Below, in pieces: positions 23,915 to 36,177 of a stretch of DNA of 64,000 bases. The position numbers were made by a program, and so were the translations under genes. The stretch comes from Planctomycetota bacterium (GTDB lineage Bacteria; Planctomycetota; UBA1135; UBA2386): positions 6,656,001 through 6,720,000 of the forward strand of contig OZ245006.1 in assembly GCA_965223545.1 (NCBI GenBank). Direction: 5' to 3'. A model generated the notes under the pieces. The model was not told the DNA's origin and searched no databases. It worked only from the letters and a program-made list of their open reading frames with translations. Positions within the stretch are counted from its first letter, which is position 1. Every line of letters starts with the position of its first letter.

Positions 23915-26900
23915 TCAGAAGTCCTTGGTCTTCGCCGGCGCGGTGTACGCCGGGATCGGGTCGATGCGGCGCCGATCGGGCCGGCCCTGGAACAGCCACC
24001 GCGGCCGCGCCTCCGGCGAGCGCAGATAGCCGAACACCTGGAAGCCGACGACTTGCGAGGTCAGCAGGTTGACCACGCGCGGCAGGATCAACCAGTCCGC
24101 GGTGCCGGCGAACAGGTCGGGAAACTCCAGGTCGATGTCGAGGTAGCCGTCGAACGTCAAGTTGCCGGCGCCGACCACCTTGACCTGGGGCGAGGTCACC
24201 TGCAGATCGTCGATCTGGATGCGTTGGTCGCCGATCGCGTAGCGCAGGCTCGCGCCGTCGAACTGGGGGCGATTGTTCGGGGCCAAGAACGCGTAGATCG
24301 CCGAGAAGATCGGCACCTCGCCGAGGCGGCCGTGGCTGATCTGCAGGTCACCCGTGGCGCGCATGTCGATCAGCTCGGTGCCGACCAGTCGCTCGAGCTG
24401 CAGCCTGCCGGCGAGGGTGCCGCGCGCGACCGGCGCGGCGGCGCCGAGGTCGCCCATCAGGTCGCGCAGCTGCACGCTGTCCCACTCGAGGCTCGCCGAC
24501 AGCGCCTCTTCGTCGAGCTGGTAGACGAGGCTGGGGGTGTCGTCGGTCGGTCCGCGCACCGCTCCGCCGTGCAGGTTGCCGATCAGTCGATGCAGCGCGA
24601 ACTGCGTCGGGGTCGCGCGCAGGCTGGCGCGGAAGCCGCGCAGTGGGTGGCCGAGGAGGTCGAACGACACGTCCTGCAGGTCGGCGTCGACCTGCCCGCC
24701 GGTCGGCATGATCTTGGCGTCGCGCAGCCGGACTGCTCCCGACAGCTGCCGGATCGGCACCACCAGCCGCATCTCGAGGCCGCGCGCCATCACCTCGCCG
24801 TCGAACTCGAGCGTGAAGTCCTCGCCGCCTTCCTCGAATGCGTAGTGCATCGCCAGACCGTCGATGCGCACCGGCCCGCGGATGCGACGGTCGAGGAACG
24901 TCTGCCGCAGCGGCCCGGTGATCAGGTTGGCAAACCGGTCGTCGACGACGAGGTGGTCCGCCGACAGAGTCGTGCGGATGTAGGACTTGCCGTCGGCACT
25001 GCCGAACGCGCCGCCGGTGAACAGCAGCGCCGCGTCGTCGAGCCGGCCGCGGACGTCCTCGAAGGAGCCGCGGCCGTCGGCGAAGTGGACCTCGCCGCGC
25101 AGTGCCGTGATCGGGCCCGGCAGGAACGCGGCGGCGGTTTGCACGTCGCGCAGGGCGATCCGCACCGTGTTCTGGGTCGCCTCGCTGCCGGCCTGCTTGA
25201 CGAAGTGGCTGACCAAGTCGATCGCGCCCGACGGCTGCAGCATGTCCCAGGTCTCGCGGTCGAGCAGGCCGGTCTTGACCAGGGTGTCGGCCAGGGCGGC
25301 GTTGAGCGGCAGATCGCGCAAGACGGTGGTGAGGTCGAGGGCCCGGTCGTCGGGGTCGGAGTCGATGCTGCCCTCGAGCAGAACTCCGGCGGTGGTTCCC
25401 TCGCCGGTGTCGAGCACGCCGCGCAGCATGCGGATGTCGACGTGGTTGTCGTTGCCCGAACCGCGGACGACGGCGGTCCCGTGCAGACTGTCGACGCGGC
25501 GCTCGAAGGTCGGCGCCAGCACCGAGCTGTCGGTGAAGTCGAGCTGCAGCTTGTGCTCGTATGCATCGCTGCCCACCGGCTGCCAGACGGTCACGGCGCA
25601 GCGCACCGTGCCGCGCGGATCGAAGTCTCGCCACAGCGCGCCGAGATCCGGGCTCAACGCGGTCACCGCGTCGTGCAGCGCGTCGTCGAGCGGGATGCGG
25701 TCGCCGGTGACCCAGAGTCGCGAGCGCAGGCCGTCCTCGGCGGAGTGCAGCTGGTAGCTGCCGCCGATATCGACGACGGCGCCGGCGCGCTGGCCGCTGA
25801 GCTCGAACGCGAGGTCGTCGGGGCCGATCTCGATCGAGCCGGTGATGCCCTCGAGGCGGTAGGGAAAGGCGTCGTAGCTGACGCTGCAGCCCAGCGGTTG
25901 CAGGGTGACGTGCACCTCGGTGGGGGCCGTGCCAGAATGGACGTCGATCGCCACCCTCGCGTCGCTGCGCCCTTGCGGCGAAAACCGGTCGTAGATCGCG
26001 GCCCCCTCGCCGCGCAGCACGGTGTCGACGGCGGTGCGCAGTTCGTCCGAGAACGCCAGGCCCGTGCCGTCGATCTCGAGCCGCATCGAGCGTTGGTCGG
26101 GGGCGTCGTCGACTCCTTCGATGGCGCCGTTGATGTGGACCGTGCCGCCATCGGCCCGCTTGCCCTCGAGGTCGGCGATGACGACGCGACTCGGGCGCAG
26201 ATGGATCGAGCCGCGGACGTCGTCGATGGCGAACGGGAAGCCGAGCGGCGCGCTGCCGTCACTCTGCTCGAAGCCGGTGAACGAGCCGCTGACGCCGTGC
26301 AGCACCAGATCCATCGACGGGGCGGGTGGCGCGCCGCCGCTGGCGGCCAGCGACAACACCGCGTCGATCCTTCCGTTGCGCGGCGAGAACGCGTTCCACA
26401 TCCGGCGCACTGGCGCCAGCTCGCCCAGGCTGCGCTGCAGGGTGTCGTCCACCGGGATCTGCTCGGCCTCGACCGACACGTCGAACGCCGGCACGTCGCC
26501 GAGCACGTCGGTGACCGCGCCGCGCACGCGGAGCTTCCCCTGGCCTTGGCGCGCGTGCGCGTCGAAGGTGATCGCGCCGCCACCGGCGGTGGTCGCCCCC
26601 AGCTTCGCCGTGGCACCGTCGATCGGATAGGGAACCTCGGGCGCGGTGATTGCGACGGCGGTGAGGTCGGCGTTCAGCCGTGCCGTCACCGCCGCATCGT
26701 CGCCGGCCTCGGCGGGGTACTGGATCCAGAGCGAGATGCGGTCGGCGTTGGCGGTGAAGCCCGCGCGCCGCAGATACTGCTCGAGGGCGCGGTGGTAGGG
26801 GCGCGCGGTGTCGGCCGAGAGCGGCACGTCGGCGGTTTCCAGCAGTGCGCGGAACTCGGAGCGCGCGAGATCGGCCGTTCCCCGCACGGTGATCTCGAAG

Positions 26901-27469
26901 CCCGCCGCGCTGCTCATCGAGCCGCTGAGCGCCATGCGCTGATCGTCCGCCGCATCGGGCAGCAGCTGCAGCGAGACGGCGTCGAACACGAGCTCGGGGG
27001 AGCCGGGGCGCAGCTGCAGCGATACTCGCGAATTCGTCACCGAGACCGCGGGATAGCCGCCGTCGCCGCCGGTCTCTTCGGGCAGCTGCAGGATGTCGCT
27101 CCAGTCGAGCTCACCGCTCTCGGTCAAGCTCAGCCGCAGGTCGAGGCCCTCGATGTGCACCTGCCGCAGCGTGCCGACCCCGGTGGCGTCGAGTGGGTTG
27201 GTGTTGACGTCGAGCTCGATGTTGCCGGCGCTCAACACCGGGGCCTCGCCGGGGTCGGGGTGGGCGATGCGCACGCCGGTGAGCCGGACGCGGCCGGTGG
27301 TCGGGTCGAGGTCGGCGTCGGCGAGGTCGAATTGGCCGCGGATGAACTTGGCCATGACCTGCTGGACGAACGCGCGGGTCGCGCCCGAGTGCCGCAAGAT
27401 GGCGTAGGTCGTCGTCAGCAGGACGGCGAAGAAGCCGACGAACAGCAGGATGATGGTCTTTCGGGACAC
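23915..27469 (-). CDS. AsmA-like (TamB/YhdP-type) envelope protein
   Basis: 1184 aa; single N-terminal TM, repeated beta-strand-rich segments, AsmA_2-like C-terminus (G.G.LTFDGYLD). Confidence 0.7.
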   Translation of the reverse strand: MSRKTIILLFVGFFAVLLTTTYAILRHSGATRAFVQQVMAKFIRGQFDLADADLDPTTGRVRLTGVRIAHPDPGEAPVLSAGNIELDVNTNPLDATGVGTLRQVHIEGLDLRLSLTESGELDWSDILQLPEETGGDGGYPAVSVTNSRVSLQLRPGSPELVFDAVSLQLLPDAADDQRMALSGSMSSAAGFEITVRGTADLARSEFRALLETADVPLSADTARPYHRALEQYLRRAGFTANADRISLWIQYPAEAGDDAAVTARLNADLTAVAITAPEVPYPIDGATAKLGATTAGGGAITFDAHARQGQGKLRVRGAVTDVLGDVPAFDVSVEAEQIPVDDTLQRSLGELAPVRRMWNAFSPRNGRIDAVLSLAASGGAPPAPSMDLVLHGVSGSFTGFEQSDGSAPLGFPFAIDDVRGSIHLRPSRVVIADLEGKRADGGTVHINGAIEGVDDAPDQRSMRLEIDGTGLAFSDELRTAVDTVLRGEGAAIYDRFSPQGRSDARVAIDVHSGTAPTEVHVTLQPLGCSVSYDAFPYRLEGITGSIEIGPDDLAFELSGQRAGAVVDIGGSYQLHSAEDGLRSRLWVTGDRIPLDDALHDAVTALSPDLGALWRDFDPRGTVRCAVTVWQPVGSDAYEHKLQLDFTDSSVLAPTFERRVDSLHGTAVVRGSGNDNHVDIRMLRGVLDTGEGTTAGVLLEGSIDSDPDDRALDLTTVLRDLPLNAALADTLVKTGLLDRETWDMLQPSGAIDLVSHFVKQAGSEATQNTVRIALRDVQTAAAFLPGPITALRGEVHFADGRGSFEDVRGRLDDAALLFTGGAFGSADGKSYIRTTLSADHLVVDDRFANLITGPLRQTFLDRRIRGPVRIDGLAMHYAFEEGGEDFTLEFDGEVMARGLEMRLVVPIRQLSGAVRLRDAKIMPTGGQVDADLQDVSFDLLGHPLRGFRASLRATPTQFALHRLIGNLHGGAVRGPTDDTPSLVYQLDEEALSASLEWDSVQLRDLMGDLGAAAPVARGTLAGRLQLERLVGTELIDMRATGDLQISHGRLGEVPIFSAIYAFLAPNNRPQFDGASLRYAIGDQRIQIDDLQVTSPQVKVVGAGNLTFDGYLDIDLEFPDLFAGTADWLILPRVVNLLTSQVVGFQVFGYLRSPEARPRWLFQGRPDRRRIDPIPAYTAPAKTKDF

Positions 27470-27620
27470 GGCTCGCTGGGGCGCTGAGTCAGTGGGGGCG
27501 TGGCGCGAGGCGGCGATCAGCGGCCGGTGCGGCCCGCCGGATTTGTCTCTCCAAGCGCGTCGAGATCAGGCTGATTTCGCTCCAGAATGGCGTTTTCGGC
27601 ACGGAAACGGGGGTTTTGCG

Positions 27621-27648
27621 TTGACACAAATGCGCCGCGAGCCAAACT
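27621..27648 (+). promoter_or_regulatory. Candidate sigma70 promoter for the histone gene
   Basis: Perfect TTGACA, 16-nt spacer, weak CAAACT. Confidence 0.35.
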
Positions 27649-27727
27649 CGCCAGCGCTAACGCGAGTGACACGCCGAGGGGGTGTGTCGCCGGCCCTACG
27701 ATCATCCACACAGAAGGATCGAAACCG

Positions 27728-27925
27728 ATGGCAGCCAGAAGAAAAAAGGCGGCGCCGCCAGAGCTCATCATCTCCAAGTCGCGCACCAAAAACGCGGTGA
27801 GGAAGTGCAACGTCTCCGGCGATTTCTACGGAGCTCTGGACGCGGCTGTGCGCAGCCTGATCAAGACGGCCGAGGGCCGCGCGCTCGAGAACAAGCGCAA
27901 GACCCTCAAGCCCTGCGATCTGTAG
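27728..27925 (+). CDS. Bacterial histone-fold protein (DUF1931/face-to-face type) with a basic N-terminal tail
   Basis: MAARRKKAAPPELIISKSRTKNAVRKCNVSGDFYGALDAAVRSLIKTAEGRALENKRKTLKPCDL; RA..N.RKT....DL histone signature; GAAGGA SD. Confidence 0.85.
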   Translation: MAARRKKAAPPELIISKSRTKNAVRKCNVSGDFYGALDAAVRSLIKTAEGRALENKRKTLKPCDL

Positions 27926-28017
27926 AGCGTCCGCTGCCGGCGGGTCGCCTCGGTGGCACGCCAGCCCGCCCTCTTAGGGGGCGGCCCTCTGCCGCGGCGC
28001 GTTCTGCGCGCCGCGTG

Positions 28018-28059
28018 AACACGCGAAGGACTCCCGCCTTCGCGTGTTTTTGTTTGTTT
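28018..28059 (+). terminator. Rho-independent terminator
   Basis: 12-bp stem AACACGCGAAGG/CCTTCGCGTGTT followed by a T-rich tract. Confidence 0.75.
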
Positions 28060-28081
28060 GGGAGCGTGGCGGCGTCGAGCG

Positions 28082-30187
28082 CTACAGACCGATCGTCAGA
28101 TCCACCGCGATCGTCGTAAGAAACCCTTGCACTGCGGTCGGGTCCAAGACCACGGCCTGCGTGTGGAGTTGGATTCCGCCGAGGGCCGCGGGCTCCGGAA
28201 TCGGCAGGGGCATGGTCGCAAAGCCACTCGTCCCGGTCACGGCGGGCAACGAGGTCGCCAGCGCCCCGGGATCGATCAAGAGCTGGCAGCCACCGGCAAG
28301 CGTGAGTTGCAGGGGCGCGGTCGAGATCAAGATCGCGGCAGCGCTCTGGCTGCTGCCGCGGAAGACATCGAATCCGAACGAGCGGTTACCCAAGTGGGGC
28401 TTGCCGAAGGACTCGAGCAAGGGCTGCGCCGAGGTGCTCATACAGCCGGCGCCGCGCCGCGCCACGGTAGCGATCGGCAACCTGGTCATCACTTGCGTGG
28501 TCGGATAGCGCTCGATGATCAAGCGCTTGCGAAACGAGTCGTATGCCGCGATGCCCGGTCCAACCGGTGGCGTCGAGACGGGCTGCCAGCCCGAAGTGCT
28601 CCAGCGCCAAACCGCGCTCCCGACCAGGAGCATCTCGTCGCGGTCCGCGTCCCAATGCAACTCGGTCCTCTCTTGGGTCGGTCCATTGTTCTGCAGTAGC
28701 GTCCAGCCGTCGCCGTCCCACTCCCAGGTATCGTCGAACCACTGCAGCGGAACCGATGGTTGGACAACGCCAGGGGAGCCATAGGTCGCCCCTCCGTGCA
28801 GCATGATCGTGCCGCGCTGCGGATGAAAGGCCATCGCTGCGGCAGATCGCGGCGACGGGCCCTGGCTCGCGGCGAGGCCCCACTGGCCGTCATCCCACCT
28901 CCACGTCTCGCCGTAGTTGGTCGTGACGTTGTATGAGCTGACTGCCCGCACTCGATAGCCACCGAACAGGATGGCGGCGCCGCTCGGCTCGTGGGCGAGG
29001 CCTGGCTCCACGTAGCCCGGCGCGCCTCCGAGACGCCGCCAGGCCGCTCCGTCGTAGGAGTACGTGTCACCGGTCCAAGGGGCGAACTCGCGCGCCGTCA
29101 CCACCCAGAGCTGCCGCAGCCGGTCGTTCCACATCGGAGAAAGCCGCGTGAAGACTCCGAAAGGGCTCGGCGCCGAGTCCTGTACCCACTCGATACCATT
29201 CCAGCTCCAAGCGCTTCCGATGCCGACGGCGATCGACTGGCGGCGCCGGGCATCGTAAGTGAGGTTGGAGACGAAAGGCCGCCGCAGAACGAGCTGCCAG
29301 CGCGTGCCGTCCCAGGAGGCGACATGGCCCTCGGTAGCGTGGGCGAGCAAGCCGCTGCGCGTCGACACCAGCCACCTTGACCCAGGTGCCGGCGGCAACG
29401 CGGCCCACTGGCTGCCATCCCAGCTCCACGCCTGGGTGGGCGTCGAGGACTTGGTTTCGAACAGAACGATGGTGGCCGTCGTCGGATCCCAAGCCATTGC
29501 CAGACCTGGGTTGATTTGCGTTGGGCCGCCGCTGGTCGTGCGTGCGCTCCATACCACGCCGTCCCACTCCCAAGTCGTCGCGTCAACGCCGTTGTGGAGC
29601 ACGATCACCTGGCGCAGTGGGTCGTACGCGAGTGCCACCGAGCCAGCGCGTCGCGTCGGCGCCATCGGTGCAGGCGCCTGCCGCCAACTGCTCCCGTCCC
29701 ATAGCCAGGTCTCGGCGTTGTAGCCCGAGGTGGATGGCGCCGATCCTCCGAACACCATGAGCTCGCCGCGGGCCGCGTCGTACGCCATGCGGTGTACGAG
29801 GCGCGGGCTGGGGCCGCCACCGTCGTCGAGCAGAGTCCAATCGACGCCGTCGAAGCTCCACAGCTCGGCATTGGGAGTACCTGAGCCATCGCTGCCCCCG
29901 AACAGCAACACGTTGCCAACCGCGTCGGCAGCGAGCGCGGAGCCGACGCGGTCGATCGGCATCGTCGATGGTTGGCGACTCACCCATCCACCGTTCCACT
30001 CCCACACGGCTTCCTGTCCGGGAGCGCCGACGTACGCCACGATCCGATCCCGAACCGGGTCGTAGGTCACTTCGGTGGAGGATACGGTCCTGGGTGCGAG
30101 TGTCCGTGATGACCAAGACGGCGGTTGGGCTACCAGGAGCCACGGCGCCCAGACTGCGACGACCACGGACGAAAGGGCTCGGGGCAT
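28082..30187 (-). CDS. Secreted kelch/galactose-oxidase-like beta-propeller repeat protein with a conserved C-terminal domain
   Basis: Repeats of the type AYD..R...VLFGG...TW.WDG..W; signal ending LVA|Q; GAGGAGG SD. Confidence 0.85.
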   Translation of the reverse strand: MPRALSSVVVAVWAPWLLVAQPPSWSSRTLAPRTVSSTEVTYDPVRDRIVAYVGAPGQEAVWEWNGGWVSRQPSTMPIDRVGSALAADAVGNVLLFGGSDGSGTPNAELWSFDGVDWTLLDDGGGPSPRLVHRMAYDAARGELMVFGGSAPSTSGYNAETWLWDGSSWRQAPAPMAPTRRAGSVALAYDPLRQVIVLHNGVDATTWEWDGVVWSARTTSGGPTQINPGLAMAWDPTTATIVLFETKSSTPTQAWSWDGSQWAALPPAPGSRWLVSTRSGLLAHATEGHVASWDGTRWQLVLRRPFVSNLTYDARRRQSIAVGIGSAWSWNGIEWVQDSAPSPFGVFTRLSPMWNDRLRQLWVVTAREFAPWTGDTYSYDGAAWRRLGGAPGYVEPGLAHEPSGAAILFGGYRVRAVSSYNVTTNYGETWRWDDGQWGLAASQGPSPRSAAAMAFHPQRGTIMLHGGATYGSPGVVQPSVPLQWFDDTWEWDGDGWTLLQNNGPTQERTELHWDADRDEMLLVGSAVWRWSTSGWQPVSTPPVGPGIAAYDSFRKRLIIERYPTTQVMTRLPIATVARRGAGCMSTSAQPLLESFGKPHLGNRSFGFDVFRGSSQSAAAILISTAPLQLTLAGGCQLLIDPGALATSLPAVTGTSGFATMPLPIPEPAALGGIQLHTQAVVLDPTAVQGFLTTIAVDLTIGL

Positions 30188-30503
30188 GTGTCCTCCTCGG
30201 GTTCGAATCCGGCGCTAGTATACGGCAGTGGTTTGGATCCCGGGGGGGAGGCCGGGTATCGAGCGTATCGGCCTCGAACACTCCGATGCGCCGGTATGAC
30301 GCGGCGACGATCGAGTATCGAGTGAGGATGCCCTCGGTGCTGCCGACCACTACCGAACCGCGGCCGAGCCGTCGCACTCGGTGACGACCAGAGAGTCGTC
30401 ATGGCCGAGCCAGGCTTCTTGACCGAGCGCTTGAACTCCGAGCTCACCGTCGAGGTCCCCAGCGTGCACGTCGCCTTGCTGGGGGTGCCGGTGGCTAATC
30501 GAG

Positions 30504-31637
30504 TCACTGGTTCGGCATGTTGAGGACGACGGTCGCGGCAGTCGACAGCTGGAGCGGCCCCGAGGGCGGCGCGACGACGGCCTGCAGTACCACGGGCAAC
30601 CGCTGGACCGACGGCGGCATGAACGCGGACACGGGCGTGGAGTGGAACAGGTAGCCCCGGTTGTCGAGTGTGCCGGTGAACGTGATGGCGAAGGCTGCCG
30701 GATCGATCCACAGCTCGGGCCATCCAAGTGACGGGAGGAAGGGGGGCGGTGGCTGCATGCGGGCGAAGCTGCCGAGCACGACGAAGAAGGCGTTGGCGGA
30801 GCCCCAGAGGCGGTACTCGAGGATGTCGAGGTACGCAAATACCGAGACCGCGGGGATCGGATTGGGGATGAGCTGGATGTTGCCGACGATGGTCTTGGGC
30901 GCTCGTTCGTACGTGAGCGTGCCGCCATTGGCGAGCACGTCGGGTGCGGTGCCGCACGGACCCGAGGCCCCGACGGGAAAGCTACTTGGACCGGCCAGCA
31001 GGATGTCGGAGTTTGTGGTGACCAGGCCGGGGTACGGGGTGGGGCAGAGGTGTGTGAACCAGCCCGAATCGATGATGGTGACGCGGGAGTTGATGCAGGT
31101 GAATGGCAGAGTGCTGGTCGGGAAGAAGGAAGAAGGAGCCGAAGGCCGTGTAGTTGATGACGACGTTGCTGTTCTCGATGTGCCAGCGCTCGGCTCCACT
31201 GCTGGTCACGGTGACGTTCTTGCAGTTCTTGATCTCGAGCAGCGAGTCGGTGTTGGCCGAGGTGGATACATCTTGCAGGTGCACGTGGCCATCGCAGTCG
31301 AGGACGTGTAGGTTTCCGACTCCCGTGATCAACCCGATCGCAGTCGAGTTAAGTACAGCGCGCTGGCCGACGGGCACGCCTTGGATGGTGGTTGTGCCCA
31401 ACGCGAGGCCCCTTACCACGGGGTAGATCTCGACCCCCTTGCGATCATCGGCGCGGTGTACGTGCCTCCGGGTGCACTGGTGCGGACGACGACGTGGTCA
31501 CCGGGTGCGGCGGCCTGGACCGCCGGTGGCAGGTCGGTGAAGTGTGTTCCCGGGCCGTTGAAGGCATCGACGATCCAGGTTTTTTGGGCCGGGGCGAAGC
31601 CGGCAATGACGCCGAGTGCGAGGAATGACAAGCGCAT
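30504..31637 (-). pseudogene. Secreted protein gene interrupted by two frameshifts (pseudogene or sequencing indels)
   Basis: MRLSFLALGVIAGFAPAQKTWIVDAFNGPGTHFTDLPPAV... joins the frame of ORF 30982-31419 near 31440 (one base missing) and the frame of ORF 30504-31199 near 31098 (one extra base). Confidence 0.7.
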
Positions 31638-31646
31638 GAGAGCTCC

Positions 31647-32600
31647 CTACGGTGAAGAGGCGCTGCACAGTTCGAAGCGGCGGATCCCGGTCGCTGTAGC
31701 GATGTAGAGCTCGGGCACCCCGTCAGGGCCGATGAGATCCTTGGCGTAGATCGAGTGGAATGCACCCGCCGAGCCTTCGACGAGGCCGCGGTAGATCGGC
31801 TGACCACTCTGAGTGAGTCCGCCGCCGGCGCCCACTGTTGGGTCCCAGCGGAATACGACGATCTCCCCGGCTGCGGTTGTGATCAGGATTTCGGTGTCGT
31901 TTGGGTTGCAGTCCAGGTCGGCGACCAAGGCTCCGGTAGCACCCCAGCCCGGGAAGTGCGGGTCGTAGGGGGTGCCGCCCAACGGCACCTGCTGTAACGT
32001 CGTCAGGCCTTGTGTGATCGGGTCGTAGTCGAGGATGGACAGTGACGCCCGCGCGTATTCACCGCCGTACCCGATCGGATCGAAGTACGGCGCGAACACG
32101 ATTTCGTCGCGTTCGTCGCCGTCCAGGTCGTGCAGTGCCAGCGCCAGGCCGCCGAGGCCGAGATCTGCACTCTGCGCCAGGATCGCAGATGTGGGCGAAG
32201 TGGGGGTTGTGCCACCGAAGTAGGCGTCGAGGACTTGCACTTTGCCGCCAAAGCCCGCGACCACGGGTCGGGGATGCTCCTGTCCTGATGTCTGTTGCGT
32301 GCGCACGGCGAGCAGGCCGAAGTGTGCCGGGTCACCCATGTACGTGTAAGGTTCGAGGTGCTTGTTCGCCGCGGCAGATCGCGTGCCGTGCATGCGGAAG
32401 AGCACGACGGCGGTCGGGCGTTCGAGAACCCTGTCGGCGGGGAGAGGGGCGACGATCTCGAACGAAGCGACGTTGGTTTCGCCCTTTGGCGTCCCCTGCA
32501 GCTCCCCGATCCAGTTCTGCAGGTTCTGGATGCGCGGCAATGGCAATGGCAAGATTGACTGGTCGCTTTCGTCGACGCCCTCGATCGGGGTCCACCCTCG
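31647..32600 (-). pseudogene. 5'-truncated FG-GAP/VCBS-repeat protein
   Basis: DLDGDERDEI, DLDCN..DTEI and DLIGPDGVPEL motifs; no start or signal peptide; upstream end abuts the IS66 remnant; boundary approximate. Confidence 0.6.
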
Positions 32601-32604
32601 ATGT

Positions 32605-32750
32605 TGGATCGCCACGGAGATCGAGGCCGTCCAACAAGAGCGCGAGTTCGCTATTCGCAATCTCGAATCGGCTGCTGTTCTCCGCGGAGCGATCGAATAC
32701 CGGAAAGCGGCCGCTCGTCAGTCGCTTCGCCAGCACCCAGTAACCGGACG
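32605..32750 (-). mobile_element. IS66-family accessory TnpB (Orf2) C-terminal remnant
   Basis: SGYWVLAKRLTSGRFP...EI...ELALLLDGLDLR matches the IS66 TnpB G.W...KRL..GRF...L..LL.G.DL pattern. Confidence 0.75.
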
Positions 32751-32752
32751 AC

Positions 32753-33802
32753 TCAATTCTTCCTCACTGTGATCCGCGCGATGATCTCCCCGAGGTTGGA
32801 GGAAGACATATTGCGATACGGCGACACGAACTTCTTCCTGAATTGGTCGTCGATATTGATCACCTCCTTCGGCTCGTATTTGATTACAGTGAACCCGCCA
32901 GACTCGAACTTAGCTATCCACTCACGCGGACGTACGCGATTCTGCCGCACTCGGCAGAGCTTGCCCGGCAAATCTGTAACATCTCCTGCGGCATTAGAAG
33001 CTTCATGAGACAGGTAGTCCAAGGGGTGTACGTCCTTGTCCTGGTATCGCCTGTGATCCGTAGCATCGACCAGGTGAACACCAAACCCACCCGCAGACGT
33101 CACTCGCGATAACTCTCCAACCACACTGTCTGGCTCGAGCACATGCTCCAAGAACGCGTGCGACACCGCCAAGTCCACCTCACCGTCACGTATCGGTAGG
33201 TCCGCGGCATCAGCACACCTCCAGCACAGCTTTTCCCCATCGATTCCAGCAACATCTCCTTGGGCAAGCCTGGCCACACCAAAGCTACGGAGGTTCTGCA
33301 AGACCTCTAACCGGCTTATTGCGTACCCACCCACAACCGATGTCGGGTGCAGCAGCATCGCGGCGATCAGGTCGGCTAGCGCTCGCGCTGCCCGAGGCTC
33401 GTGCTCTGGACGACTAGTATCCACAGCATACGCACGCGTTGCCCCCAACATAATGTGTAGCATTGACAGGCCTCCGGGGTTCCAGGACCCACACCCCAGG
33501 TCGAGAACTGTCTTCCCACTCAAAGAATAGTCGCTGTCCCCCAGGGCTTTGCACATTCCTCGAAAATCTCGACCAATTCGACGAGGAGAGAGTCGGTTTG
33601 TCGGTCGATCTAAGAAGGCAGCTGCAGTATCGATGAAGGGTTTCAGATCCCAAGCTACACCGCTCGTAACCTGCTTGCTGGAAAGCCGTGCGATGAGTTC
33701 ACCGCAGAGAGCTTCCGTAGAGACCTCCGAGAGGCGGGGATCGTCGTCGGGAATAGAACCGACGCCCCATGAAGGGAGTTGGCCAGACATCGCTCTACTC
33801 AT
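32753..33802 (-). CDS. Class I SAM-dependent methyltransferase (low-GC, likely horizontally acquired)
   Basis: VLDLGCG, DAADLP..DGEVDLAVSHAFLEHV, EL.RV...GG; visibly AT-richer codons; start at 33802 or 33790. Confidence 0.8.
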   Translation of the reverse strand: MSRAMSGQLPSWGVGSIPDDDPRLSEVSTEALCGELIARLSSKQVTSGVAWDLKPFIDTAAAFLDRPTNRLSPRRIGRDFRGMCKALGDSDYSLSGKTVLDLGCGSWNPGGLSMLHIMLGATRAYAVDTSRPEHEPRAARALADLIAAMLLHPTSVVGGYAISRLEVLQNLRSFGVARLAQGDVAGIDGEKLCWRCADAADLPIRDGEVDLAVSHAFLEHVLEPDSVVGELSRVTSAGGFGVHLVDATDHRRYQDKDVHPLDYLSHEASNAAGDVTDLPGKLCRVRQNRVRPREWIAKFESGGFTVIKYEPKEVINIDDQFRKKFVSPYRNMSSSNLGEIIARITVRKN

Positions 33803-34164
33803 AGAACGGGATAAGCCGATTGTCGCCGCCAAGAGGCGCAAACGGCGGTGCCGCTTCTCAGCGCCCGGGAGTTGCGGAATCGAACTCCTGACGGCAAACG
33901 GCCTTCGGAAATGTTGCCGCCGCGCGAAGGCTCTCGGCCCCGGACGCTCAGTCCGAAACCAGCCGCGATGATTGCGCAAAAGTGGTGCTGATCACGCATT
34001 TCGAGCGCCTCCTGGGTCTCCAACTCCGGTGTGGACAGCGTGGATCGTGCCGCTGCACGCTGCACGGGCTTGTAGCCTTGGAGACTAGCGTCCCGCGGCG
34101 ATCTGGTCGATCCCCTCGGCCGTTGGAGCGGCATCGTCGCCCGTCGCCGACGACGAGAGAGCCC

Positions 34165-34821
34165 TCAGTCCGCGTAACTCGCCATCAAGTACAACGGCTG
34201 CAACGCCTGGGCCGAAGCCGGAGTCGTCGCGATGCGCGGATCGAGCAGCAGCGCCGCGCGTTGCGCCGGCTCGGCGCGCGCAGTGACCCAGCCCACCACG
34301 CGCTCCTCCACCACGCCCCGCAAGGTCGGCTCGAGGCTCTCCTCGGCGAGCACCGTCTCGTCGTCGCGCATCGCCGCCGCGCACTCTTCCAGCGGCGTGG
34401 CCCGCGGTTTCTCGACGAGCACGACGTGCTGGCGCAGCTCGACGCGGGCGTGGTGCGCGCACCCGCGGCGCGCGTCGAGCAGGACGCGCACCGGGCCGCG
34501 GGCCCGCTCCACTGACCACGCGTGCAGGGCGAGTAGCTCGAGGCTGGTGGCGGTGTAGACCGCGACTCTGCCGAAGCGGTGTAGTGTGCGCGCGAACGTG
34601 GTGGCGACGCGCAAGCCGGTGTAGGAGCCGGGGCCGATGTCGACGTGCATTGCTTGGCAAGCGCGCGGGGGCAGGCCGGCTTGCGCAAACAGGGTGGCGA
34701 CGCCCTCGGCGAGGCCGTCGGGGCAGTCGGTCGTCTGTCGGGTGCCGTCGTCGCGCTGCAGGACGCAGCCGTAGCGGCCGGCGCTGGCGGAGATGGCGAG
34801 CGCGATCGGTGGGGTCGGCAT
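34165..34821 (-). CDS. tsaB: tRNA t6A biosynthesis protein TsaB
   Basis: VDIGPGSYTGLRV, LDARRG, terminal LQPLYL. Confidence 0.85.
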   Translation of the reverse strand: MPTPPIALAISASAGRYGCVLQRDDGTRQTTDCPDGLAEGVATLFAQAGLPPRACQAMHVDIGPGSYTGLRVATTFARTLHRFGRVAVYTATSLELLALHAWSVERARGPVRVLLDARRGCAHHARVELRQHVVLVEKPRATPLEECAAAMRDDETVLAEESLEPTLRGVVEERVVGWVTARAEPAQRAALLLDPRIATTPASAQALQPLYLMASYAD

Positions 34822-34827
34822 CTTGGC

Positions 34828-36177
34828 TCAGCTGCCGATCGCTGCGCGCACTGCGCTCGCGATGTGCTCGGTGTGGCGCTGCACGGCGTCGGCTGCCGGG
34901 CCCTCGACCATCACGCGGCAGAGGTTCTCGGTGCCCGAGTAGCGCAGCACCACGCGGCCGTCGCGGCCGAGGGCTTGCTCGACGTCGCGCACCGCCTGCT
35001 GCACGCCGTCGAGGTCTTCGAGCGCGGGCTTGTCGCGCACGGTGACGTTGACCAGCAGTTGGGGGAAGCGGTGGAACTCGGAGAATGCCGCAGCGCTGCC
35101 GCTGGCGATGTCGGGCAGCGACAGCAGCTCGAGCGCGGTCAGCAGGCCGTCGCCGGTGTAGTCGCCGCGCTCGGCGAAGATGATGTGGCCCGATTGCTCG
35201 CCGCCGAAGCCGAAGCCGTGCTCGCGCATCGCCTGCACGACCGAGCGGTCGCCGACCGGCGTGGTGTGCACGGCGATGCCGCGCGCCTCGAGGCAGCGGT
35301 GCAGGCCGAGGTTGCTCATCACCGTGGCGACCACGGTGTCGTGCGGCAGCGCGCCCTGCGCGCGCAGCTGAGGACCCAGCAGCGCCATCACCGCATCGCC
35401 GTCGCGCACCTCACCGCGGTCGTCGACGAAGATGCCGCGGTCGCCGTCGCCGTCCAGGCAGATGCCGAGCAGCGCCTTGGCCTCGAGGACCGCCGGCGCC
35501 AGCTTTGCGGCGTGCAGCGCGCCGACGTCCTTGTTGATGTTGTTGCCGTCGGGAGCGCAGCCGGTGACCACCACCTCGGCGCCGAAGCCGCGCAGCACCG
35601 CGGGCAGCACGTCGGAGCCGCCGCCGTGCGCGGCGTCGACAACCAGCACCTGGCCGCTCAGGTCGAGCTGCGGGAACTGGTTGGCGAGAAACTCCTGGTA
35701 GCGCGTCGTCAGCTCGGGGGCGTGCCGCGTGCGGGGTGCGTGGTCGGTGTCGAAGTCGACTTCCACCGCCAGCCGCTCGATCTCGCGCTCGGCGTCGTCG
35801 CCGAGCTTGCGCCCGGCGTGGTCGAAGATCTTGATGCCGTTGTCGGACGCCGGGTTGTGGGACGCGCTGATCATGATGCCGGCCGAAAACGGCTCGGTGC
35901 GGGCGGCAAACGCCAGCGCCGGCGTCGTCACCAGGCCGATGTCGACCGCGGTCGCCTCCGCCGCGGACAGCCCGCTGGTGAGCGCGCGTAGGATCCACTC
36001 GGCGGAGCCGCGGCCGTCGTTGCCCAGCACCACGCGCTTGTCCGCCGGCCCGGCGCGCTGCAGGTAGACGCCGAGCGCGGCACCGATCCGCGCCAGGGTA
36101 GTCGCGTCCATGGGCGGCACGCCGGCCTCGCCGCGCAGGCCGTCGGTGCCGAAACGAGGGGCCGTGGTGTCGTGCAT
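34828..36177 (-). CDS. glmM: Phosphoglucosamine mutase
   Basis: FGTDGLRG, MISASHNP, DGDGDR, GGEQSGH, RYSGTE. Confidence 0.95.
   Translation of the reverse strand: MHDTTAPRFGTDGLRGEAGVPPMDATTLARIGAALGVYLQRAGPADKRVVLGNDGRGSAEWILRALTSGLSAAEATAVDIGLVTTPALAFAARTEPFSAGIMISASHNPASDNGIKIFDHAGRKLGDDAEREIERLAVEVDFDTDHAPRTRHAPELTTRYQEFLANQFPQLDLSGQVLVVDAAHGGGSDVLPAVLRGFGAEVVVTGCAPDGNNINKDVGALHAAKLAPAVLEAKALLGICLDGDGDRGIFVDDRGEVRDGDAVMALLGPQLRAQGALPHDTVVATVMSNLGLHRCLEARGIAVHTTPVGDRSVVQAMREHGFGFGGEQSGHIIFAERGDYTGDGLLTALELLSLPDIASGSAAAFSEFHRFPQLLVNVTVRDKPALEDLDGVQQAVRDVEQALGRDGRVVLRYSGTENLCRVMVEGPAADAVQRHTEHIASAVRAAIGS

What the first reader, a model, noticed from the sequence alone, without database searches (positions are those of the whole stretch)
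27728..27925. Stand-alone bacterial histone with a Lys/Arg-rich N-terminal tail
Seen: a 65-aa basic protein with NVSGDFYGALD and RALENKRKTLKPCDL, an extra MAARRKKAAPP tail, an upstream TTGACA and its own terminator. Known: RA..N.RKT....DL is the prokaryotic histone-fold L2/alpha3 signature, and the NV..DFY.ALD segment recalls archaeal DUF1931/face-to-face histones. Inference: a likely abundant nucleoid protein whose tail and two Cys residues could be modification sites. The ORF track hides it behind a spurious N-terminal extension.
Basis: partly seen in the sequence, partly recalled or inferred. Interest (0 to 1): 0.72.

Follow-up and report, generated by a model that had tools for sequence, protein, structure and literature searches.

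The report
Tailed bacterial histone with leader hairpin
This is a real, small DNA-packaging histone of an already described bacterial type (four copies form a ring that DNA wraps around); the one new detail is a conserved RNA hairpin at the front of its message that may control how much is made.

Summary
27728-27925 encodes a 65-aa, pI 10.4 histone-fold protein with its own promoter, ribosome-binding site and terminator. [quoted passage not shown] It carries the FtF tetramer signature R51/N55/R57/T59/D64 (120 of 120 close homologues). A tetramer model could not be run. One match per genome is found in 82 of 91 family genomes, in a conserved asmA-like / tsaB-glmM neighbourhood; the host is probably Planctomycetota. 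FtF histones in Planctomycetota and their basic tails are already published, so the tail is not new. The cysteines are poor modification candidates: C63 is kept in 6 of 34 family loci, and C27 aligns to a hydrophobic Met of HTkC. It is specific to the histone gene and has no Rfam match. Its partner is unknown. Verdict: new member of a known family, with one undescribed regulatory lead.

The parts
27621..27648 (+). sigma-70-type promoter: -35 TTGACA (27621-27626), 16-nt spacer, -10 CAAACT (27643-27648); start site inferred near 27654-27656
   Evidence: positions; matching arrangement upstream of homologues in 34 of 34 family loci by a loose pattern and in records of other phyla; not picked up by the strict consensus scan
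27666..27690 (+). 5' leader hairpin, 10 bp, with conserved apex GCC-GAGGG-GGY (27673-27683; loop 27676-27680)
   Evidence: fold; alignment and covariation; 16 of 34 family loci, 0 of 14 other-family loci; only copy with a promoter among 50 matches in this genome; no Rfam match
27714..27719 (+). ribosome-binding site AAGGAT, 8 nt before the ATG
   Evidence: AGGAT is the most enriched 5-mer before starts in this genome (35 against 4, of 1541 starts) and pairs with the 16S 3' end found in the genome
27728..27763 (+). basic N-terminal tail, residues 1-12
   Evidence: pLDDT 52 for residues 1-10; structural alignment to HLp and HTkC starts at residue 12
27764..27925 (+). alpha3-truncated histone fold of FtF type, residues 13-65 (helices 17-23, 31-54 and a one-turn helix 62-64); R51, N55, R57, T59, D64; predicted DNA-binding K17, S18, R19, K21, R57, K58, T59
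   Evidence: residue mapping onto HTkC and HLp through the alignments and the residue lists
27926..28059 (+). 3' untranslated region with three predicted hairpins, then an intrinsic terminator (stem 28017-28049 and T-run)
   Evidence: hairpin-rich 3' regions in relatives but no shared sequence seen by eye
23915..27469 (-). divergent neighbour: 1184-aa AsmA-like protein (DUF748 below cut-off; the name AsmA-like is my recalled label)
   Evidence: upstream and divergent in 34 of 48 loci
34165..36177 (-). tsaB-like (TsaD Pfam) and glmM-like (PGM/PMM) genes, the usual convergent downstream neighbours, here displaced by about 6 kb
   Evidence: tsaB hit 72-837 bp after the histone stop in 30 of 48 loci

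Best explanation
A single-copy housekeeping face-to-face histone. Monomers form handshake dimers. Two dimers close into a ring through R51 (to the partner's C-terminal carboxylate), N55 and R57. About 50-60 bp of DNA wrap around the ring without sequence preference, through K17/S18/R19/K21 and R57/K58/T59. The K/R tail is a disordered, length-variable electrostatic extension that adds DNA contact or bridging. It works beside three HU/IHF proteins, not instead of them. It is made from its own monocistronic mRNA, whose leader hairpin most likely presents a fixed loop to a trans-acting partner (a protein or the 30S anti-SD) that tunes translation or mRNA stability. Shown here: gene, signals, fold model, signature residues, conservation, hairpin covariation. 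Inferred from HTkC and HLp: tetramer, wrapping, abundance. Inferred without direct precedent: tail role and hairpin function.
For: Profile search of PDB sequences returns only HTkC (E 3.1e-8) and HLp (E 3.3e-4) below E 0.26, of 9 listed. Model pLDDT 84.5; Foldseek ranks HTkC and HLp first at rmsd 1.5 A, ahead of HBb at 1.7-1.9 A; the wide search gives HLp Z 7.1, HTkC 6.9, HBb 6.8, then 5.2 or less. R-x3-N-x-R-x-T-x4-D-x-COOH in 120 of 120 close homologues. R51 aligns to HTkC R45, the residue that 10.64898/2025.12.06.692711 calls critical for the tetramer (passages). Bacterial dimer histones lack the R and N (PMC11390915 passage). One match per genome in 82 of 91 family genomes, 30 of 31 high-quality ones. 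No second histone found in this genome. Hairpin.
Against: Fold scores do not separate FtF from the dimer class: the three Z values lie within 1 and no Foldseek row reaches E 0.001; the class call rests on signature residues. N28 stands where HTkC has the minor-groove R22, so binding may be weaker or different. Three HU/IHF genes are present, unlike Leptospira, so 'principal' nucleoid protein is not established. The apex motif is missing in 18 of 34 family loci, so it is not required for the gene. No measurement of expression or DNA binding exists for this protein.
Confidence: 0.88

Rival explanations
1. It is a bacterial-dimer-type histone like HBb/Bd0055 that bends or coats DNA as a dimer.
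For: HBb scores Z 6.8, within 1 of the FtF pair; bacterial dimers also occur in Planctomycetota (PMC11390915 passage); it keeps the full RKT motif.
Against: R51 and N55, which the dimer class lacks, are invariant in 120 of 120; identity is 32-37% to HLp and HTkC against 23% to HBb; HBb is not among the 9 sequence hits.
Confidence: 0.07
2. The tail and cysteines are regulated modification sites, giving this bacterium a eukaryote-like or redox-sensing chromatin switch.
For: A basic tail is kept in nearly all bacterial relatives. C27 is invariant in 120 of 120 close homologues. The genome has one HDAC-family gene and one small SET protein. Tail methylation is reported for Asgard histones (10.64898/2026.07.02.735847, passages).
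Against: Tail length varies from 3 to 52 residues with no fixed lysine register. C63 is Cys in 61 of 120, 6 of 34 and 4 of 60; C27 is Cys in 24 of 34 and 43 of 60. The SET gene sits beside a PLP decarboxylase far from the histone. HDAC-family genes ring in 9 of 14 control genomes, so their presence says little.
Confidence: 0.15
3. The leader apex is a second, stronger Shine-Dalgarno-like site (standby or decoy for 30S subunits), not a protein-binding loop.
For: The leader pairs with the genome's own 16S 3' end at -10.7 to -14.1 kcal/mol in all 16 motif loci, against -3.3 to -6.5 for the true site. The one variant (L009) has GGAGG in the loop.
Against: Part of the match is buried in the stem. 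No conserved upstream start follows it (GTG at +9 or +10 in 2 of 16). The canonical A of the SD never appears at loop position 5. Three of 16 non-motif leaders besides L009 also reach -9 to -11, so G-runs give such energies easily.
Confidence: 0.25
4. The leader hairpin is only a generic 5' stabilising stem and the shared apex is inherited, not selected.
For: 33 of 34 family leaders fold a hairpin of 7 bp or more, most non-motif ones with other loops (no shuffle control). Motif bearers cluster on the tree (3 changes against 11.1 shuffled).
Against: Among the 16 bearers four-fold sites are 46% identical, 0 of 13 such columns are invariant and promoter spacers are 31% identical, while 10 apex positions are identical in all 16 and the flanking stem covaries.
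Confidence: 0.2

Closest known systems
HLp, FtF histone of Leptospira perolatii (PDB 9QT0-9QT2; PMC12701072)
   Same: Single short histone fold with one-turn alpha3; R49/N53/R55/D62 map to R51/N55/R57/D64; rmsd 1.5 A over 54 residues, 32% identity; short unresolved N-terminal extension.
   Different: Longer and more basic tail; host keeps three HU/IHF genes whereas the paper reports no HU in Leptospira; neighbours are asmA-like and tsaB-glmM, not smc and map; Asn at HLp M26; the leader hairpin is not mentioned in the sections I read.
HTkC, archaeal FtF histone of Thermococcus kodakarensis (PDB 9F2C; PMC11390915; 10.64898/2025.12.06.692711)
   Same: Best sequence hit (E 3.1e-8), 35-37% identity, rmsd 1.5-1.6 A; R45 maps to R51; K7/S8/K9/K11 map to K17/S18/R19/K21.
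   Different: HTkC has no tail and has R22 in the minor groove where this protein has N28; it has no Asn at the N55 position; alpha1-L1 is four residues longer in HTkC.
HBb/Bd0055, bacterial dimer histone (PDB 8CMP, 8FVX)
   Same: alpha3-truncated fold, Z 6.8, rmsd 1.7 A; S-K motif in alpha1.
   Different: The dimer class lacks the tetramer R and N; 23% identity.
DUF1931 pseudodimeric histones (PF09123; accession recalled)
   Same: NCBI labels close relatives and HLp 'DUF1931 domain-containing'; about 120-aa two-repeat proteins appear among distant hits.
   Different: This protein has one fold, not two, and no Pfam DUF1931 hit.
Metazoan histone mRNA 3' stem-loop bound by SLBP (seen only in a search listing; otherwise recalled)
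   Same: A histone-mRNA-specific hairpin with a fixed apex.
   Different: Here it is 5', bacterial, unrelated in sequence and limited to part of one family; an analogy only.

Membership tests
alpha3 histones | three-helix histone fold with alpha3 cut to 3-4 residues and a shortened alpha2 | tested here: met
[quoted passage not shown]
   R51, N55 and terminal L65; pattern in 120 of 120; mapping through
face-to-face (FtF) histones | RxTxxxxD motif (RD clamp) | tested here: met
   R57, T59, D64 invariant in alignment A1
face-to-face (FtF) histones | conserved alpha1 lysines (HMM K16; HTkC K7/K9/K11) | tested here: met
   K17, R19 and K21 invariant, aligned to HTkC
face-to-face (FtF) histones | ring-shaped homotetramer (the formal definition) | not tested
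   the complex-prediction job never entered the queue; no four-chain model exists
face-to-face (FtF) histones | wraps about 50-60 bp of DNA without sequence preference | not testable with these tools
   needs EMSA, MNase or TPM; inferred from HLp and HTkC papers
bacterial dimer histones (HBb type) | lack of the R48 and N52 residues | tested here: not met
   both are present and invariant
DUF1931 pseudodimeric histones | two tandem histone folds in one chain | tested here: not met
   65 aa, one fold; no Pfam hit
archaeal nucleosomal histones (HMf type) | full-length alpha3 of about 10 residues and sprocket arginine | tested here: not met
   chain ends one residue after the Asp; N28 at the arginine position; HPhA matches at Z 4.8, rmsd 2.8 A; no PF00808 hit
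known Rfam cis-regulatory RNAs (leader hairpin) | match to a curated family at its gathering score | tested here: not met
   9 matches at E<=10 in 27450-28100, all far below gathering and none covering the apex

The most novel reading that the evidence does not exclude
Bacterial histone dosage is controlled after transcription by a dedicated, sequence-specific stem-loop in the histone mRNA leader, read by an unknown RNA-binding protein or by the tailed histone itself (autoregulation). This would be a bacterial counterpart in logic to the eukaryotic histone stem-loop, on a histone subfamily that is 70-83% identical across several phyla and whose tail can grow to an H1-like 50 residues.
Probability: 0.3. 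Interest if true: 0.65.

Novelty: new member of a known kind. Interest (0 to 1): 0.36.

Why it matters
The protein adds one more member to a family described in 2023-2025, in a phylum where it was already reported, so by itself it changes little. Two things have some value. The two characterised FtF histones have no or short tails; this subfamily is a natural tail-length series (3-52 residues on an almost fixed core) in cells that also keep HU/IHF, which makes the role of bacterial histone tails directly testable. And I found no paper on how a bacterial histone gene is regulated; the conserved leader hairpin gives a 25-nt handle for a pull-down or reporter test.

Tried and rejected
Tetramer model: no job could be queued, so no verdict. 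Expression: no RNA holder listed among 4 runs of one study; codon usage of 65 codons was uninformative. Family HMMs: no histone family hit in Pfam or NCBIfam (two weak unrelated rows). Regulon idea for the apex: 50 matches in this genome (43.9 expected by a fifth-order Markov model), 1 with a promoter, 2 with 7 or more extra pairs; promoter-plus-apex pattern in 16 of 91 family genomes, 14 at the histone gene by coordinates, 2 elsewhere against 3 in the reversed control; 10 non-histone model hits inspected showed no common leader context; rejected. An order-wide apex-plus-ATG pattern was likewise too loose. Pseudoknot or switch between apex and the region before the start: mean z -0.03 in 16 motif loci; rejected, although L006 and L007 fold the apex into an alternative helix. 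5'-3' closure of the mRNA: predicted in this genome's full-length fold, but cognate pairs are no better than non-cognate (mean z -0.03, n 32); rejected. Upstream ORF from the apex: no conserved start. CsrA as reader: not found in this 91%-complete genome, and the loop lacks GGA in 16 of 17. The careful tree did not finish; the quick tree of 34 of 48 loci (those with the upstream neighbour) is used only to show clustering. Supplementary file 2 of PMC11390915 (a picture PDF) was unreadable and the supplementary figures on tails were not seen; bioRxiv supplements were not available; they may bear on how far long tails are already described.

Full report
Observation. It is basic (pI 10.35) and 7.1 kDa. 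TTGACA lies at 27621 and CAAACT 16 nt later; AAGGAT lies 8 nt before the ATG. A terminator-like stem with a T-run is at 28017-28049. The strict promoter scan found nothing, but the same -35/-10 layout recurs before homologues in 34 of 34 family loci by a loose pattern. The longer ORF from 27587 begins upstream of the -35 box and is not the gene. Flanking genes are divergent (27469, minus strand) and convergent (28082, minus strand), so the mRNA is monocistronic by inference.

What it is. Pfam and NCBIfam have no histone model that hits it. A single-sequence PDB search gives HTkC (E 0.002) and HLp (E 0.15) as the top two of 4 rows. With a 120-sequence profile these become E 3.1e-8 and 3.3e-4, and the next row is at 0.26. 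The AlphaFold2 monomer (pLDDT 84.5; 52 in the first ten residues) has helices 17-23 and 31-54 and a one-turn last helix. Foldseek ranks HTkC and HLp first at 1.5 A, though no row reaches E 0.001. The wide search gives HLp 7.1, HTkC 6.9, HBb 6.8 and everything else 5.2 or less. The fold alone therefore says alpha3 histone. The class comes from residues: R51, N55, R57, T59, D64 and a C-terminus one residue later occur in 120 of 120 close homologues. These map to the FtF tetramer residues named in PMC11390915 (section 7 read in full) and PMC12701072 (sections 6, 7, 13 read in full). Bacterial dimer histones lack the R and N (passage). R51 aligns to HTkC R45, reported as critical for the tetramer (10.64898/2025.12.06.692711, passages). 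The ring itself, which formally defines the class, was not modelled.

Distribution and context. There are 882 homologues at E<=0.001. One match per genome is found in 82 of 91 family genomes and 30 of 31 high-quality ones (one match, G013, is a distant type at E 1.7e-4). The profile hits 62 of 151 sampled genomes of the phylum, mostly weakly outside this order. The closest named relatives are titled Planctomycetota, and one of them shares the upstream neighbours (L033), so the host phylum is inferred. Records titled Myxococcota, Krumholzibacteria, Latescibacterota, Acidobacteriota, NC10 and Spirochaetales have cores 70-83% identical, and Thorarchaeota and other archaea 38-51%; this is either strong constraint or transfer between phyla, which I did not test. 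The gene lies between a divergent AsmA-like gene (34 of 48 loci) and convergent tsaB-glmM (tsaB in 30 of 48). In this window about 6 kb of lower-GC DNA (64%) separates it from tsaB. The genome has no second histone by two searches and three HU/IHF genes.

Tail and cysteines. [quoted passage not shown] PMC10627809 (passages) also notes persistence of histone genes in Planctomycetota. My data agree: tails run from 3 to 52 residues, the long ones made of K/A/P/T repeats. C63 is Cys in 61 of 120 close homologues, 6 of 34 family loci and 4 of 60 bacterial loci. C27 is Cys in 120 of 120, 24 of 34 and 43 of 60, with Ser, Ile, Leu or Tyr elsewhere, and it aligns to M21 of HTkC. I read C27 as a packing residue and C63 as incidental; burial was not measured. 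The one SET protein lies beside a PLP decarboxylase. The HDAC-family gene is of a kind found in 9 of 14 control genomes. Tail marks are reported for Asgard histones (10.64898/2026.07.02.735847, passages), so modification is possible but nothing here points to it.

The leader hairpin. Comparing upstream DNA showed a hairpin 51-64 nt before the start whose apex GCC-GAGGG-GGY is exact in 16 of 34 family loci (one per genus sampled) and 0 of 14 loci from other families; L009 has a variant loop. In an alignment of these 17, chosen because they carry the motif, 80.6% of cells pair against 64.9% in shuffles, with 31 two-sided changes against 14.3 (0 of 500 shuffles). Relatedness and a structure drawn from these sequences inflate such figures. 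The stronger argument is divergence: among the 16, four-fold sites are 46% identical, none of 13 columns is invariant and promoter spacers are 31% identical, yet the apex is unchanged. Fourteen of 16 leaders fold with GAGGG as the loop. The motif is tied to this gene: it is the only copy with a promoter among 50 in this genome, 14 of 16 family pattern hits are at the histone, and 16 of the 21 best covariance-model hits are histone leaders, 14 of them training sequences and 2 held out but from genera in the training set. Bearers cluster on a quick tree; the other branch has a hairpin at the same place, often with a pyrimidine loop. Rfam has no match. Three literature searches found no description (0 papers; two reviews, listing only). 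Pseudoknot, 5'-3' closure, uORF, regulon and CsrA explanations failed. What remains is a loop read in trans. The apex pairs with the genome's anti-SD about twice as strongly as the true site, which keeps a standby-site model open; a protein reader, possibly the histone itself, fits the invariance better.

Mechanism. Most likely a housekeeping FtF histone that forms a ring tetramer and wraps 50-60 bp of DNA, helped by a disordered basic tail, alongside HU/IHF (0.88). Gene, signals, fold model, signature and conservation are shown. Tetramer, wrapping and abundance are inferred from HLp and HTkC. Tail role and hairpin function are inference.

Verdict. New member of a known kind; interest 0.36, carried mainly by the undescribed leader hairpin and the tail-length series.

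Noticed in passing
window 28082-33979: About 6 kb of lower-GC DNA (64%, 61% in the distal part, against 71-73% around) sits between the histone terminator and tsaB: a 701-aa Kelch-like beta-propeller protein, two ORFs without Pfam hits and a methyltransferase. The propeller gene was found in no other fetched locus.
   Followed up: partly
L023, L044, L068, L069, L083, L086, L091: Relatives titled Planctomycetota, or from the same order, have 43-52-residue K/A/P/T-repeat tails resembling linker-histone tails on the same core, while L077 and L090 have almost none.
   Followed up: no
L026, L028, L032, L110, L111, L117, L118 leaders: The branch of the family without the GAGGG apex has a hairpin at the same place with a pyrimidine-rich loop of the form A-Y-T-T-(T)-C/G, perhaps a second motif.
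   Followed up: no
L034-L071, L087, L093-L105: Cores 70-83% identical in records of several bacterial phyla, and 38-51% in Thorarchaeota and other archaea that share the segment SGDFYGALD, which may reflect transfer between phyla or domains.
   Followed up: partly
P0144, P0154, P0164, P0174 and similar; P0185: About 120-aa proteins with two matching stretches (tandem folds) and a 260-aa protein with two stretches appear among distant hits.
   Followed up: no
L079: A homologue whose frame runs on past the usual stop into a long C-terminal extension, which would break the terminal salt bridge.
   Followed up: no
L126:1276-3020: A 165-aa SET-domain protein directly upstream of a PLP-dependent decarboxylase, overlapping its start.
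   Followed up: partly
G000:C1 16S rRNA 3' ends (two copies): The 16S end reads GGATTACCTCC, not the commonly recalled GGATCACCTCC.
   Followed up: no
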